Counted from the stretch's first letter, positions 36,063 to 39,649 are shown. The stretch: DNA of 64,000 bases from an uncultured Gammaproteobacteria bacterium (GCA_964492735.1 CAZBLE010000002.1:135-64134), one strand, 5' to 3'. The notes: generated by a model from the sequence alone, not told the origin. Numbers and translations: made by a program.

Positions 36063-36755
36063 ATGACTGCTGTTTTTCAGGCAATTCGGTCATCAATGCT
36101 AACGATTATCGTTGGTTTTGTCCTCGCTGCGGTTGCATCCGTCGGTTTATACCAAACCGTGTTCGGTGTTGCTTCATCGTTTTCACAAACGATTAGTGAT
36201 GGTTCACAGTCAGTTGATATCGTTGATGCTGGCGGAACAACTGTTGGTAGTCCAAGTGTGACATTCTCAAGCGCAACATTTTCAACCAGTTCACAAACAG
36301 TGACCGGCACTCTTGGTACATCATCACAGCGTATTCGTGTGTATAATCCGACATCTGACGCAACTTGGACTATTGCAATCGCGGCAACCGGTGGTTCAAC
36401 AGCGACATGGAGTGATGGTTCACACACATACGATTTTAATGATAGTAACACAGACGGTACAGATGATGCTGATACAGATACAAAAGGTGGACGTTTAACC
36501 GTAAATCCTGCCGCCGGAACACGGGCAGGGTCTCCTGATAATGCTACCTGTCCAATTACAGACTTAACACTCGGCTCTTCATCGTCATTTCGTGAAATTT
36601 CTGCAGCAGTGAGTAGTATTACGCTGCTTACAGGCGGATCATCCGCAACAACGTATTGTACATGGGATTTAACTGGCGTTGGCTTGTCTCAAGTATTGCC
36701 ACCATCACAACCAAGTGGTGCATACACCCTTTCATTCACCATTACATTGTCATAA
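36063..36755 (+). CDS. Small secreted/anchored Ser/Thr-rich surface protein; its C-terminal ~190 aa are paralogous to the C-terminus of the 38081-39649 protein
   Basis: N-terminal hydrophobic segment MLTIIVGFVLAAVASVGLY. Shared blocks include VGSPSV.FSS.TF, GTLGTSSQ.IRV, YDFNDSN..G.DDADTDTKGGRLTVNPA, SSSFREI..AVSSITL, CTWD.TGVGLSQV and YTLSFTIT.S. Confidence 0.6.
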   Translation: MTAVFQAIRSSMLTIIVGFVLAAVASVGLYQTVFGVASSFSQTISDGSQSVDIVDAGGTTVGSPSVTFSSATFSTSSQTVTGTLGTSSQRIRVYNPTSDATWTIAIAATGGSTATWSDGSHTYDFNDSNTDGTDDADTDTKGGRLTVNPAAGTRAGSPDNATCPITDLTLGSSSSFREISAAVSSITLLTGGSSATTYCTWDLTGVGLSQVLPPSQPSGAYTLSFTITLS

Positions 36756-36847
36756 TCTATAATTGCGACCTAACACACCAATTTCCTTGGTGTGTTTTTT
36801 TGTAAAAAATGATATACTCAGCGTATTCATCAATACAAAATAAAATT

Positions 36848-38074
36848 ATGCGTCTATCATTTCTGTATCATCGTTCGTTGTTGAGTCTTGCTGCGGTAGT
36901 GGCTTGTGTTTTGTTTAGTAGCCAGGTTGCTCAGGCTGTTGATGTTGGGAATTATGGAGGAAAACCAGCGCATCCAGGAGAAGGGAATGATCATACAAAA
37001 CAGTGGTTTATTTATAAATCTTTACCAGTTGGAGAAAAGCGTGAAGATGTGTTGTTGTTATCGAATGATTCTGATGCGCCTCTTACATTAAAAGTATACC
37101 CTGCTGATTCAGCAAAAAGTTCAGACGGTGGTTTTGCGCTCGAGCAAGAAGTGGAAGAGCGTGATGAAGTTGGAAAATGGATTACATTATCCGCATCTGA
37201 AGTAACACTTGAGCCACATACGACACAAGAAGTGCCGTTTTCTATTGAAATCCCAGCAGACGCGACAGTCGACGCTGGTGAACACGCGGGCGGTATCTTA
37301 ATTCAAGAAAAAAAGGAAGCCCCAACAACAACGACTGGCGGCATTCAACTGAGCACTCGTATTGGCGTGCGTGTCTATGTGACAGTTCCTGGAGACGTGG
37401 TTGAAGATGTGAAGATTAAGTCGTTTAATCTCAAAACAAGTGAAAATGGCTTATTTACAGATAAAGAAGCAGAAATTGAGGTGCAAAATACCGGAACAGT
37501 GCGTGAAGACCTAACGATTGTGACAAAAATTGAACCGGTCTATTCATGGCTATCAAAGATTTTTGACCGGACTGGTTTGTTACCGATTAGTAACGAGCGC
37601 GGTATGCAAGTATTGCGCGACGATACGCTGCGGAGCTCATTTCAGTTTGTCAGCCCAAAAATTGCAAAAGTGAAAGCGACAGCAACGGTTGTCTATACTG
37701 ATACTCACGGCGAAAAACAAACAATTTCTGCAACTCCAATTGAACAATGGGTGTTGCCTCCACAAAAACAGTTGATTATTATCGGTGTTGTCACACTGGT
37801 TGCACTGATCGCTATTGTATTGATTGTTTGGGGTGTTGTGCGGACAATTACTCGGTTGCGTCGAGCATTGCAGCTATTGAAATCACAAGAAAGCGCGACA
37901 CAGCAAGGCAGTGTTGAAGCGGTTGAAAGCGAGGACGACGAATCGGAGGTTGTTGCTCCTGTGCCAGTGAAAAAACCACGCAAAAAAGCAGCACCTAAAA
38001 CACCAGCAAAAAAAGCGACCGCAACAAAAAAGCCAGCAGCGAAAACAACTCGTAAAAAAACAAAAACATCTTAA
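36848..38074 (+). CDS. Secreted surface protein with a C-terminal TM anchor and a Lys/Ala/Pro-rich cytoplasmic tail
   Basis: Signal peptide (LLSLAAVVACVLFSSQVAQA); beta-rich ectodomain; TM LIIIGVVTLVALIAIVLIVWGVV; tail KKPRKKAAPKTPAKKATATKKPAAKTTRKKTKTS. The resemblance to DUF916-type Gram-positive surface proteins is only an impression. Confidence 0.5.
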   Translation: MRLSFLYHRSLLSLAAVVACVLFSSQVAQAVDVGNYGGKPAHPGEGNDHTKQWFIYKSLPVGEKREDVLLLSNDSDAPLTLKVYPADSAKSSDGGFALEQEVEERDEVGKWITLSASEVTLEPHTTQEVPFSIEIPADATVDAGEHAGGILIQEKKEAPTTTTGGIQLSTRIGVRVYVTVPGDVVEDVKIKSFNLKTSENGLFTDKEAEIEVQNTGTVREDLTIVTKIEPVYSWLSKIFDRTGLLPISNERGMQVLRDDTLRSSFQFVSPKIAKVKATATVVYTDTHGEKQTISATPIEQWVLPPQKQLIIIGVVTLVALIAIVLIVWGVVRTITRLRRALQLLKSQESATQQGSVEAVESEDDESEVVAPVPVKKPRKKAAPKTPAKKATATKKPAAKTTRKKTKTS

Positions 38075-38080
38075 TATTCA

Positions 38081-39649
38081 ATGATTTCTCAGCGTGCATC
38101 TTTTCGATTCTCTTTGAAAAAGCAGCTTTTATTCTTGCTTCTATTGAGCGCGTTTCCATTTGGTGTCTATGCTGCTGATGGTTCAGGGACAAACGCGGTC
38201 AGCCCAACCTCTGTTGGTGTCAGCTCCACAGATCAAACATTTGCGTTTACCTACACCGCTGCTGAGGCATTAAATAGCGGGGGTCTGGCCATTACAATTC
38301 CTACGAGTTCGAGTTGGTCAACTCCGCAAGGGGTTGCTGGAACTGCTGGTCGCACAACTGCCAGCGTTTCTGGCTCGGCAATGATTGCTGATTCTATCAA
38401 CGAAGCAGACAGTACAACTGGATGGACAGAGGATGATAGCGATGCATGTAATACTATAACGCAATGGGCAGATGGCTGGGGGCTTGATACAGGGGTTTTT
38501 TATGAAACGACTGGCTCTATTTCGTGCGATAATGATGCTGATGCGGGTCCAGATGCGACAGATAGTTTTAGTTATGATTATGCGACTCCGCAAAACTTTT
38601 CGTCATATACAAAGCTCGGTTTCTGGTTTCGCACAAATACAACGATGAATAATAGTTCTATTCGTGTTGGACTTGATGACTCAGCGGCTTGCGATTCAAT
38701 TAATGATTTTTTAGGATTGCCAGCGATCAATGCCAATACATGGACGTATATCAATTGGACATTTGCTGGGGCAGGCTCAACCCGCTCTGCAGTGCAGGCC
38801 ATTTGTTTTTATGCAGCTGGAAATGCTGGCCTTGATGCGAAACAAATTTATATTGATGACATATTAATGGGTCCTGGGAGTCCAACATTTGTTGCGAATG
38901 GAAGTAATACAGATATTCGACTGCGTTTTTTACAAATGGCGTTAAATGAAACCGCAACAGTGACATACGGCGCTGGAGGAGGGACATCAGGTGTCGATTT
39001 GCCGAGCACTCCAGGTGTGAATACCATTACAACAAAATCTCGGGTTGATTCCAGTGGAACGCTCACCTCTATTGCAAGTTCGCCAACAATTACACTGACA
39101 ACACCGCTTGCCGTTTCCATTGTTGATAGTGGTGGGTCAACGGTTGGAAGTCCGTCTGTTGGGTTTAGTTCAACAACATTTCCGTTTGCTGCAACAACAA
39201 CGACTGGAACACTTGGGACCTCAAGTCAAAAAATCCGTGTAAGTAATGGAACTGGTGTTGGAACCTGGTCTGTGACAATGGCGCCAACATCTGGGAGCAC
39301 CGGTCTTTGGACATCTGGCGGAAATACCTATGATTTTAATGATAGTAATAGCAGTGGCTCAGATGATGCAGATACTGATACAAAAGGTGGGCGACTGACA
39401 GTCAACCCTGCTGGAATTACCGTGACGCCAGTATCTCCATGCGCATCGACGACTGGTGTGAGTGCGGGTAGTAGTAGTTCGTTTCGTGAAATTGCCACAG
39501 CAGTGAGTAGTATTACACTCGCCAGTGCGAGTTCAGGTGCGTCCGGGTTTTGTACATGGGATGTAACAGGGGTGGGTTTGAGCCAGGTGATTCCAGGACG
39601 TCAGCCAACAGGAACCTACACCCTGTCGTTTACGATTACAATTTCGTAG
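38081..39649 (+). CDS. Secreted 522-aa Ser/Thr/Gly-rich surface protein carrying the same C-terminal domain as the 36063-36755 protein
   Basis: Signal peptide LLFLLLLSAFPFGVYAADGSG. The C-terminal 190 aa align block-by-block with the upstream paralog. Confidence 0.6.
   Translation: MISQRASFRFSLKKQLLFLLLLSAFPFGVYAADGSGTNAVSPTSVGVSSTDQTFAFTYTAAEALNSGGLAITIPTSSSWSTPQGVAGTAGRTTASVSGSAMIADSINEADSTTGWTEDDSDACNTITQWADGWGLDTGVFYETTGSISCDNDADAGPDATDSFSYDYATPQNFSSYTKLGFWFRTNTTMNNSSIRVGLDDSAACDSINDFLGLPAINANTWTYINWTFAGAGSTRSAVQAICFYAAGNAGLDAKQIYIDDILMGPGSPTFVANGSNTDIRLRFLQMALNETATVTYGAGGGTSGVDLPSTPGVNTITTKSRVDSSGTLTSIASSPTITLTTPLAVSIVDSGGSTVGSPSVGFSSTTFPFAATTTTGTLGTSSQKIRVSNGTGVGTWSVTMAPTSGSTGLWTSGGNTYDFNDSNSSGSDDADTDTKGGRLTVNPAGITVTPVSPCASTTGVSAGSSSSFREIATAVSSITLASASSGASGFCTWDVTGVGLSQVIPGRQPTGTYTLSFTITIS

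What the first reader, a model, noticed from the sequence alone, without database searches (positions are those of the whole stretch)
36063..39649. Duplicated ~190-aa C-terminal domain shared by two neighbouring surface proteins
The C-terminal regions of the 231-aa protein (36063-36755) and the 522-aa protein (38081-39649) align block-by-block. The blocks are VGSPSV.FSS.TF, GTLGTSSQ.IRV.N, W..GS.TYDFNDSN..G.DDADTDTKGGRLTVNPA, SSSFREI..AVSSITL, CTWD.TGVGLSQV and Q P.G.YTLSFTIT.S. The N-terminal parts differ: a hydrophobic anchor versus a cleavable signal peptide plus a 300-aa extra domain. The conserved Cys and the DSN..DDADTDTKGG block suggest a folded, possibly Ca-binding module reused on different carriers. 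I recognise no known domain.
Basis: seen in the sequence. Interest (0 to 1): 0.55.

Follow-up and report, generated by a model that had tools for sequence, protein, structure and literature searches.

The report
Divergent WxL surface-protein cluster in Patescibacteria
The repeated domain is real and turns out to be a very divergent version of the WxL cell-wall anchoring domain, sitting in the classic three-gene WxL surface-protein cluster, but in an ultra-small uncultured (Patescibacteria) bacterium where this system has not been described.

Summary
The short protein (36063-36755) and the C-terminus of the long protein (38081-39649) share about 181 aa at 63% identity (E=5e-61). It is a WxL-interacting protein (WxLIP/DUF916, Pfam PF06030 above its cut-off) with a C-terminal membrane helix. 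Short protein, WxLIP and long protein carrying the same domain at its C-terminus make up the defining layout of the WxL (Csc) cell-surface cluster of Firmicutes.

Pfam does not detect the shared domain. Profile-profile comparison links it end to end to PF13731-positive WxL proteins (probability 96.8-96.9%, E about 2e-10; reversed and shuffled controls fail). The first Trp-x-Leu motif is kept. The second Trp is replaced by an aliphatic residue. A 15-20 aa acidic loop is lineage-specific.

The family is large: 768 clusters at 50% identity, almost all from Patescibacteria where a source names the organism. It has short and long forms, with the domain always at the extreme C-terminus, and it is consistently linked to WxLIP.

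Verdict: a new, sequence-divergent variant of a known system, probably a wall-associated display complex for variable adhesin or lectin domains. Calcium binding and any fibre assembly remain untested.

The parts
35985..36013 (+). Promoter-like site (TTGCCA-17-TACAAT with an upstream TG, 10 of 12) about 50 nt upstream of the short gene
   Evidence: Consensus match only; the number of such sites in the region is not above the shuffled expectation.
36063..36755 (+). Short (small) WxL-like protein, 230 aa. Predicted Sec signal peptide (about residues 1-35/37), then the shared domain (residues about 40-230). Acidic, pI 4.1.
   Evidence: The signal peptide is inferred from the family alignment; no SignalP was available.
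36180..36752 (+). Shared domain, copy 1 (residues 40-230), including the short-form-specific N-terminal SQTI motif
36366..36374 (+). First Trp-x-Leu-type motif of copy 1 (W102-T-I). W is conserved in 245 of 254 family members.
36432..36491 (+). Acidic loop of copy 1 (DFNDSNTDGTDDADTDTKGG), with no counterpart in PF13731-positive WxL proteins
   Evidence: pLDDT dips to 79 in this block.
36772..36796 (+). Terminator-like hairpin (10 bp stem followed by a T-run) between the short gene and WxLIP. It is conserved in the closest relative (L003 7929-7955).
   Evidence: Absent in the more distant L001.
36809..38074 (+). WxL-interacting protein (WxLIP): signal peptide, DUF916/PGBD domain, a second beta-rich region, TM helix and a Lys/Arg-rich tail. 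The likely true start is the ATG at 36848 (MRLSF), as in homologues.
36968..37306 (+). PGBD (DUF916) domain of WxLIP, residues 54-166. PF06030: 37.3 bits against a cut-off of 27.3.
   Evidence: The profile of the Patescibacteria homologues hits solved EfmWxLIP1 (9i1y, 9i25) at E=3e-6.
37772..37840 (+). C-terminal transmembrane helix of WxLIP (residues 322-344), followed by a 77-aa tail with 20 Lys/Arg
   Evidence: read from the sequence
38081..39649 (+). Long (large) WxL-like protein, 522 aa: signal peptide (about residues 1-31, ...GVYA|ADG), a lineage-specific passenger region of about 310 aa, and the C-terminal shared domain
38174..39109 (+). Passenger region of the long protein (residues 32-343). 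No Pfam or NCBIfam match. The AF2 model is poor.
39110..39646 (+). Shared domain, copy 2 (residues 344-522), ending at the last residue of the protein
39332..39391 (+). Acidic loop of copy 2 (DFNDSNSSGSDDADTDTKGG)

Best explanation
The three co-directional genes at 36063-39649 are a WxL-type (Csc-type) cell-surface cluster in a Patescibacteria (CPR) bacterium. They encode a small WxL-like protein, a WxL-interacting protein (WxLIP) and a large WxL-like protein. The duplicated 180-190 aa module is a highly divergent WxL domain.

Proposed mechanism, by analogy with the Firmicute system: all three products are exported by Sec signal peptides. WxLIP is held at the cell by its C-terminal membrane helix, with its basic tail in the cytoplasm. 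The DUF916/PGBD domain of WxLIP docks the WxL-like domains of the small and large proteins at the peptidoglycan surface, possibly by inserting a beta-strand into them. The large protein thereby displays its variable N-terminal passenger domain outward as an adhesin or lectin.

Shown here: the duplication, the fold confidence, homology to PF13731-positive proteins, WxLIP identity, conserved linkage, and the variable passengers. Inferred: export, complex formation, wall binding, and the adhesive role.
For: 1. The middle gene is WxLIP. PF06030 scores 37.3 bits against a cut-off of 27.3. The profile of its homologues hits the solved EfmWxLIP1 chains 9i1y and 9i25 at E=3e-6. It has a C-terminal TM helix and a tail with 20 K/R in 77 aa, matching the PGBD-second domain-TMH layout described in PMC10599100.

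2. The layout of small protein + WxLIP + large protein with the same domain at its C-terminus is the published definition of a WxL cluster (PMC9772566, PMC10599100).

3. Linkage is conserved in both directions. Of 24 loci obtained through WxLIP (L001 plus the 23 loci), 16 carry the domain next to it. Twenty of 30 metagenome loci retrieved with the domain carry WxLIP next to it, and in the other ten the domain lies at a contig end or on a short contig.

4. In loci where WxLIP lacks this domain as a neighbour (L014, L020, L022, L023), the neighbours hit Pfam WxL PF13731. Three of them score above the gathering cut-off.

5. hhalign of the family profile (A1) against those neighbours (A4) gives probability 96.9%, E=1.7e-10 over 158 columns. 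Against 14 PF13731-positive proteins (A5) it gives 96.8%, E=2.6e-10 over 156 columns, end to end. Reversed and 30 column-shuffled controls score 15.3 or less, with E of 0.2 or more. Reciprocal HMM-to-sequence hits exist to bridging members that have a short acidic loop.

6. The first motif aligns: V-x-N-P....G-W-[TS]-[LVI]-..AAT against V.D.RGTG.GW[ST]L.VSAT. So does the C-terminal IPA.Q..GTYTL..TLT against VPAN....GTYT..LTLT.

7. The family has 768 clusters at 50% identity, with short forms (about 210-260 aa) and long forms (330-1820 aa). The domain ends at the last residue in 254 of 260.

8. Passengers of the long forms are diverse and adhesin- or lectin-like: Laminin_G_3, Ig-like, PATR, beta-helix and H-lectin. 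Most are unannotated.
Against: - Pfam PF13731 and NCBIfam do not hit any of 43 family members, even at E up to 10.
- The canonical second Trp is absent: position 227 is L, I or V in all members.
- The D-x-R-G residues before the first Trp are replaced by N-P.
- The small and large copies are the same domain (188 against 182 aa). In Firmicutes the small and large WxL domains are reported to differ in topology.
- The second domain of WxLIP gave no DUF3324 Pfam hit.
- No experiment supports wall binding or complex formation in any Patescibacterium.
Confidence: 0.8

Rival explanations
1. The shared module is an unrelated new fold that has independently become the partner of WxLIP in Patescibacteria (an analogue, not a homologue, of WxL). 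The hhalign signal would then reflect similar Thr/Ser/Gly-rich beta-strand composition.
For: There is no Pfam or NCBIfam hit. The second Trp and the D-x-R-G signature are missing. Only about 20% identity holds across the hhalign alignment.
Against: Reversed and column-shuffled controls with the same composition collapse to E of 0.2 or more. The alignment is collinear over the whole domain, including both terminal motifs. Bridging members give reciprocal HMM hits. The gene context is identical to that of true WxL proteins.
Confidence: 0.08
2. The short and long proteins are subunits of a surface fibre assembled by donor-strand complementation. The abundant short protein would be the shaft, the long protein a tip adhesin, and WxLIP the membrane-anchored base or strand donor.
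For: - The best PDB fold matches, all weak, are donor-strand-assembled subunits: Csu pilus 7zl4_B (prob 0.95), Pyrodictium cannula 9h8b (prob 0.97), CfaB and FimA.
- The model has a highly conserved N-terminal strand (SVDIVD, residues 50-54), separated from the body by a coil of about 22 residues.
- Published AF2 models of Firmicute WxLIP-WxL complexes show a WxLIP strand completing the WxL sandwich.
- A terminator-like hairpin after the short gene would allow excess short subunit.
Against: All fold matches have E above 0.01, TM 0.25-0.48 and rmsd 8-16 A. The three-gene module contains no chaperone, usher, sortase or dedicated assembly gene. No fibre has been reported for any WxL cluster. The hairpin is conserved only in the closest relative.
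Confidence: 0.1
3. The module is primarily a calcium-dependent carbohydrate-binding (CBM-like) or S-layer-like lattice domain. It would bind the organism's own surface polysaccharide, consistent with the neighbouring Wzy/flippase genes, rather than peptidoglycan.
For: - An acidic D/N-rich loop is present in 207 of 254 members.
- There are weak fold matches to CBM3, CBM29 and cohesin (E 0.17-0.4).
- The cluster lies beside a flippase, a glycosyltransferase, two Wzy_C genes and a TSP3-repeat protein.
Against: The loop is dispensable, being 8 aa or shorter in 28 members. The neighbouring polysaccharide genes are syntenic only in the two closest relatives, whereas the three-gene module moves as a unit. 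The CBM matches are weaker than the pilin matches. This reading does not explain the obligate linkage to WxLIP.
Confidence: 0.07

Closest known systems
WxL / Csc cell-surface clusters of Lactobacillales and Bacillales (E. faecium Swp/Lwp/DufA loci A-C, E. faecalis Elr operon, L. plantarum csc clusters). WxL domain = Pfam PF13731.
   Same: - The three-gene core is small protein + DUF916/WxLIP + large protein.
- The shared domain is 160-190 aa and sits at the extreme C-terminus.
- The products are acidic, secreted, all-beta proteins.
- The first Trp-x-Leu motif is kept.
- The C-terminal strand follows the pattern G.Y....L.L.
- The large protein carries variable adhesin- or lectin-like passengers.
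   Different: - It is not detected by PF13731.
- The second Trp is replaced by L, I or V.
- D-x-R-G before the first Trp is replaced by N-P.
- It has an extra acidic loop of 15-20 aa and a C163-C199 Cys pair.
- The small and large copies are the same domain, not two topologies.
- There is no LPxTG protein in the cluster.
- The host is Patescibacteria rather than a Firmicute gut commensal.
PF13731-positive 'single-Trp' WxL proteins next to DUF916 proteins in Paenibacillaceae, Actinobacteria and uncultured lineages (P0311 from Gordoniibacillus, L020 from Microbacteriaceae, P0333, L014, L023)
   Same: These are the closest detectable relatives (hhalign 96.8-96.9%). They likewise lack the second Trp (C-terminus ...GTYT..LTLT..). 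They are likewise adjacent to WxLIP and come in short and long forms.
   Different: They retain the D.RGTG.GW signature and are recognised by Pfam. They lack the acidic loop and the NP....W variant. Sequence identity is about 20%.
WxLIP (DUF916-DUF3324-TMH), with solved structures of EfmWxLIP1 (PDB 9i1y, 9i25)
   Same: The middle gene matches PF06030 above its cut-off and matches the solved chain by profile. It has the same order of signal peptide, PGBD, second domain and C-terminal TM helix.
   Different: There is no Pfam DUF3324 hit for the second domain. The basic tail is long (77 aa). Some Patescibacteria paralogues carry LysM, LytR_C or TSP3-like additions.
Donor-strand-complemented fibre subunits (chaperone-usher pilins CsuA/B, CfaB and FimA; archaeal cannula CanA)
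   Same: They give the best, but weak, fold matches in the PDB. They share an Ig-like beta-sandwich with a detachable N-terminal strand.
   Different: All matches have E above 0.01 and TM below 0.5. There are no chaperone or usher genes and no sequence similarity.

Membership tests
WxL domain (Pfam PF13731) | Match to the PF13731 HMM at or above its gathering score (25 bits) | tested here: not met
   No PF13731 hit for either window protein at E up to 1, nor for any of 43 family members at E up to 10.
WxL domain (Pfam PF13731) | Homology to accepted members, by profile-profile comparison | tested here: met
   hhalign against 14 PF13731-positive proteins: probability 96.8%, E=2.6e-10, 156 columns. 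Against WxLIP-adjacent WxL-like proteins: 96.9%. Controls fail.
WxL domain (Pfam PF13731) | First Trp-x-Leu motif with conserved flanks (Asp at W-8, Arg at W-6, GTxAG turn) | tested here: inconclusive
   The Trp is present in 245 of 254 members, followed by T/S and then L/V/I, and it aligns with the GW[ST]L of WxL proteins. The Asp/Arg flanks are replaced by N95-P96.
WxL domain (Pfam PF13731) | Second Trp-x-Leu motif in the last strand | tested here: not met
   The aligned position (227 of the short protein) is L, I or V and never W. The same loss is seen in PF13731-positive proteins outside Lactobacillales. A different W201-[DY]-[LFI] lies one strand earlier.
WxL domain (Pfam PF13731) | 160-190 aa domain at the extreme C-terminus of the protein | tested here: met
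   Median length is 188 aa in short forms and 182 aa in long forms. The domain ends at the last residue in 254 of 260 proteins.
WxL domain (Pfam PF13731) | All-beta fold with the two motifs on adjacent antiparallel strands forming a buried platform | tested here: inconclusive
WxL domain (Pfam PF13731) | Non-covalent binding to peptidoglycan | not testable with these tools
   This needs biochemistry. The only indirect point is that the organism encodes D-Ala-D-Ala ligase next to the cluster.
WxL (Csc) gene cluster | At least one WxLIP plus two WxL proteins (one small, one large) within four genes of each other | tested here: met
   In the window the order is short, then a 53-nt gap, WxLIP, then a 6-nt gap, long. 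The same trio occurs in 16 loci obtained through WxLIP and 20 metagenome loci retrieved with the domain, in two gene orders.
WxL (Csc) gene cluster | [quoted passage not shown] | tested here: not met
   Both copies are the same domain at 63% identity with equal length. The short form differs only by an extra N-terminal SQTI motif.
WxL (Csc) gene cluster | All products carry N-terminal signal peptides | tested here: inconclusive
   All three have a charged n-region, a hydrophobic stretch (mean Kyte-Doolittle 2.2-2.7 over 15 aa) and A/G at position -1. No dedicated predictor was available.
WxLIP (DUF916-DUF3324-TMH) | DUF916/PGBD domain (PF06030) above its gathering score | tested here: met
   37.3 bits against 27.3, E=3.1e-9, residues 54-166. 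The profile hits solved EfmWxLIP1 at E=3e-6.
WxLIP (DUF916-DUF3324-TMH) | Second (DUF3324/HBD) domain followed by a C-terminal TM helix | tested here: inconclusive
   A TM helix is present at residues 322-344, and a conserved region of about 150 aa lies between PGBD and the TM helix. No Pfam DUF3324 hit was found.
Type IV pilin-like (class III signal) proteins | Short basic leader, G/A at -1, then F/M-T-L-I-E and a hydrophobic helix retained in the mature protein | tested here: not met
   No such motif exists. The hydrophobic stretch lies before the conserved V-x-A/G site, and the N-terminal region is not conserved across the family.
Chaperone-usher / donor-strand pilins | Significant fold match plus dedicated chaperone and usher genes | tested here: not met
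   The best Foldseek match has E=0.029 and TM 0.33/0.45. The conserved three-gene module holds no chaperone or usher gene.
   None was found in 43 members at E up to 10.

The most novel reading that the evidence does not exclude
The WxL-like/WxLIP module could be the major, so far unrecognised, surface attachment apparatus of many Patescibacteria. The abundant short subunit and the long subunit would be joined to WxLIP, and perhaps to each other, by beta-strand insertion, forming an oligomeric or fibre-like scaffold. That scaffold would present hypervariable lectin- or adhesin-type passengers used to recognise host cells in the episymbiotic lifestyle. The acidic loop would be a calcium switch.
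Probability: 0.12. Interest if true: 0.8.

Novelty: new variant of a known kind. Interest (0 to 1): 0.5.

Why it matters
WxL clusters are described in the literature as essentially confined to Lactobacillales and Bacillales gut commensals. The cited study counted 938 WxL sequences in Pfam 33.1, over 91% of them in Firmicutes (PMC9772566).

This work shows a sequence-divergent branch that standard annotation does not see. It has at least 768 clusters at 50% identity. Where a source names the organism, it is almost always Patescibacteria. Further single-Trp relatives occur in Actinobacteria and Paenibacillaceae.

The result has three uses:
- It gives a functional hypothesis (a wall-anchored display of variable adhesins) for hundreds of 'hypothetical proteins' in ultra-small episymbiotic bacteria, whose host-attachment mechanisms are largely unknown.
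- It shows that the second Trp of the name-giving motif is dispensable.
- It supplies a broad comparative set for working out how WxLIP docks WxL domains.

Tried and rejected
- Pfam and NCBIfam scans of the two proteins and of 43 family members gave nothing relevant.
- A profile search of PDB sequences gave only a chance hit to a thaumatin-like protein at E=0.042.
- Foldseek against the PDB gave only weak matches, all with E above 0.01.
- Several attempts to obtain canonical Lactobacillales WxL sequences failed:
  - tblastn of a Paenibacillaceae WxL protein against plasmids found no match.
  - tblastn of its WxLIP against plasmids found only Streptomyces, Paenibacillaceae and similar DUF916 loci, without annotated WxL genes.
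  - A profile search with WxL-like neighbours returned only non-canonical PF13731 proteins.
  - P0333 was not on record for context.
- The structure of the long protein was predicted, but its N-terminal 310 aa came out at pLDDT of about 22-68. No fold search was therefore run on it, and the passenger's function remains unknown.
- I first read LysM in some WxLIP homologues as support for peptidoglycan binding. I rejected this because the LysM lies after the TM helix.
- The class III (pilin-type) signal idea was rejected from the family alignment.
- The 571-aa TSP3-repeat neighbour was considered as a fourth member. It was rejected because it is syntenic only in the two closest relatives.

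
Full report
**1. Observation**

The window carries three co-directional ORFs on the + strand: 36063-36755 (230 aa), 36809-38074 (421 aa) and 38081-39649 (522 aa). They are separated by 53 and 6 nt. BLASTP of the short product against the long one aligns residues 50-230 with 344-522 at 63% identity (77% positives, two gaps, E=5e-61). The ATG at 36063 is the likely start, because a 97%-identical homologue begins with the same residues and a promoter-like site lies at 35985-36013.

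**2. The middle gene**

It matches Pfam PF06030 (WxLIP_PGBD, formerly DUF916) at 37.3 bits against a cut-off of 27.3. A profile of its Patescibacteria homologues (A3) hits the solved chains of E. faecium WxLIP1 (9i1y, 9i25) at E=3e-6. The protein has a signal-peptide-like N-terminus, a conserved second region, a transmembrane helix at residues 322-344, and a 77-aa tail with 20 Lys/Arg.

This matches the PGBD-second domain-TMH layout described for WxL-interacting proteins (PMC10599100). According to that paper and PMC9772566, a WxL cluster consists minimally of three products:
- a small WxL protein (signal peptide plus WxL domain);
- a WxLIP;
- a large WxL protein (variable N-terminal domains plus a C-terminal WxL domain).

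The window trio has exactly this architecture.

**3. Is the shared module a WxL domain?**

HMM scans say no. There is no PF13731 or NCBIfam hit for the window proteins or for any of 43 family members. I therefore approached the question through context.

A genome scan with the WxLIP profile returned 23 loci, and one more locus came from a protein look-up. In 16 of these 24 loci, WxLIP is flanked by proteins carrying the module. In several loci where it is not (L014, L020 Microbacteriaceae, L022 Gordoniibacillus, L023), the flanking proteins hit Pfam WxL, and three of them score above the gathering cut-off.

The profile-profile results were:

| Comparison | Probability | E-value | Columns |
|---|---|---|---|
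| Module family (A1) vs those neighbours (A4) | 96.9% | 1.7e-10 | 158 |
| A1 vs 14 independently retrieved PF13731-positive proteins (A5) | 96.8% | 2.6e-10 | 156 |

The A5 alignment runs from the N-terminal Q..V..G.L strand to the last strand. Because these proteins are Thr/Ser/Gly-rich, I ran controls. Reversed alignments and 30 column shuffles gave scores of 15.3 or less (E of 0.2 or more), against 70-73 for the real comparison. Family members with a short acidic loop give reciprocal HMM-to-sequence hits of 18-22 bits.

I conclude that the module is a remote member of the WxL superfamily. One caveat applies. The link is transitive, through non-canonical PF13731-positive proteins, because I could obtain neither canonical Lactobacillales sequences nor their structural models.

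**4. What is kept and what has changed**

These figures come from 254 aligned family domains.

Kept:
- The first Trp (W102) is present in 245 of 254 members, followed by T/S and then L/V/I. It aligns with the GW[ST]L of WxL proteins.

Changed or added:
- The flanking D-x-R-G is replaced by N95-P96.
- The canonical second Trp position (227) is L, I or V and never Trp. The same loss is seen in the PF13731-positive actinobacterial and Paenibacillaceae proteins, whose C-termini (GTYT..LTLT) closely resemble the window's (GAYTLSFTITLS).
- A different Trp (W201, present in 79%) lies one strand earlier.
- Cys163 and Cys199 co-occur in 161 members, as expected for a disulfide in a secreted protein.
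- A 15-20 aa loop between N126 and G143 has four or more Asp/Glu in 207 of 254 members and is 8 aa or shorter in 28. It has no counterpart in the WxL proteins and is the least confident part of the model.
- The short and long copies are the same domain (188 against 182 aa). Short forms add only an SQTI motif just after the signal peptide. Firmicute small and large WxL domains are reported to differ in topology.

**5. Structure**

AF2 with a 43-sequence alignment gives an all-beta model of the short protein with mean pLDDT 91. A conserved N-terminal strand (residues 50-54) is separated from the body by a long coil.

Foldseek against the PDB gives no match with E of 0.001 or better. The best matches (E 0.03-0.1, TM 0.25-0.48) are donor-strand-assembled subunits: the Csu pilus, CfaB, FimA and the Pyrodictium cannula. 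This is a lead only. It does echo the published AF2 prediction that a WxLIP hairpin strand completes the WxL sandwich.

In the model of the long protein, the C-terminal domain is confident (pLDDT 86-95), but the 310-aa passenger is not (block means of about 22-68).

**6. Family size, distribution and architecture**

- An exhaustive profile search found 768 representatives at 50% identity, 501 of them with E of 1e-30 or better.
- Named sources are Patescibacteria: Moranbacteria, Parcubacteria, Kerfeldbacteria, Peregrinibacteria, Peribacteria, Komeilibacteria and Microgenomates.
- Among 262 retrieved proteins, 161 are short and 101 are long (330-1820 aa). The domain ends at the last residue in 254 of 260.
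- Passengers of 61 long forms include ConA-like lectin, Ig-like, PATR, DUF2341, beta-helix and H-type lectin domains. Most have no Pfam match.

The converse linkage test also holds. Of 30 metagenome loci retrieved with the domain, 20 have WxLIP adjacent. In the other ten, the domain lies at a contig end or on a contig too short to tell. Two gene orders occur: short-WxLIP-long and long-short(-short)-WxLIP.

**7. Mechanism (inferred)**

All three proteins are exported. WxLIP stays tethered by its TM helix, with the basic tail in the cytoplasm (positive-inside rule). Its PGBD domain docks the WxL-like domains of the small and large proteins at the wall. The large protein presents a lineage-specific passenger outward.

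The organism makes peptidoglycan, since ddl lies immediately downstream. A terminator-like hairpin after the short gene is conserved in the closest relative. It may allow the short subunit to be made in excess.

**8.

- Reuse of a module on two carriers is right.
- 'No known domain' is right only for HMM scans.
- The 'hydrophobic anchor' is more likely an ordinary signal peptide. The family shows a conserved V-x-A/G site 6-9 residues before SQTI.
- The class III pilin idea is not supported.
- Calcium binding is untested and cannot be a universal feature of the family.

**9. Novelty**

Full-text searches found no paper linking WxL to Patescibacteria. The literature describes WxL clusters as essentially confined to Firmicutes. 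This is a new, sequence-divergent variant of a known system. It is of moderate interest mainly because of its breadth in a poorly understood phylum and its obvious candidacy for host attachment.

Noticed in passing
window 36772-36796; L003 7929-7955: A strong terminator-like hairpin (10-11 bp stem followed by a T-run) lies between the short gene and WxLIP. It is conserved, with loop changes, in the closest relative but absent in the more distant L001. It may attenuate read-through so that the short subunit is made in excess.
   Followed up: partly
window 34197-35912 (- strand): A divergently transcribed 571-aa protein with a central hydrophobic helix and two C-terminal bacterial TSP3 (calcium-binding type) repeats (PF18884). 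It is syntenic only in L003 and L004. TSP3-like repeats also occur as an insert in a WxLIP paralogue (L012 10030-11517).
   Followed up: partly
P0281, P0286, P0290, P0285 (WxLIP homologues from Patescibacteria): A LysM domain lies after the C-terminal TM helix and its basic stop-transfer stretch. With a standard topology, this would place a peptidoglycan-binding module in the cytoplasm. P0285 adds a second TM helix and a LytR_C domain. Unexplained.
   Followed up: partly
L009, L012, L015, L017: Kerfeldbacteria-type and related loci carry two tandem WxLIP paralogues, each with an insert of about 45-70 aa splitting the PGBD match, plus two short proteins and one long protein. These clusters are larger than the window's.
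   Followed up: no
window 36809 vs 36848: The annotated ATG at 36809 adds 13 residues not present in homologues. The ATG at 36848 (MRLSF...) is the more likely WxLIP start.
   Followed up: partly
L002 (Streptomyces), L020 (Microbacteriaceae), L057 (Streptomyces plasmid): Actinobacterial DUF916 proteins also have WxL-like neighbours. In L020 the large one carries three ice-binding-like (PF11999) repeats. In L002 a 442-aa neighbour gives a weak PF13731 hit (E=0.036). WxL-type clusters are therefore much more widespread than the Firmicute-centred literature states.
   Followed up: partly
window 55537-55624 and 25872-25948: ARAGORN reports a tRNA-Ser with anticodon ACT and a tRNA-Ile with anticodon TAT. 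Both are uncommon anticodons in bacteria.
   Followed up: no
window 11220-15674 (+): A 1484-aa protein with right-handed beta-helix (PF13229/NosD) repeats and weak matches to the N-terminal domains of purple acid phosphatase and PhoD. It is another large, likely surface protein.
   Followed up: no
window 40695-42260 (-): A 520-aa protein with no Pfam match at E of 0.001 or better, immediately beyond ddl.
   Followed up: no
window 28715-34079 (+): A run of envelope-polysaccharide genes lies upstream of the cluster: a Polysacc_synt flippase, a glycosyltransferase and two Wzy_C (O-antigen ligase-like) proteins. ddl lies downstream, so the locus sits in a cell-envelope neighbourhood.
   Followed up: partly
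L004 (JBIIKE010000040.1), L012/L014/L023: Contigs carrying Patescibacteria-type WxLIP clusters are deposited in MAGs labelled Bdellovibrionales, Gammaproteobacteria or Pseudomonadales. These are probably binning errors.
   Followed up: no
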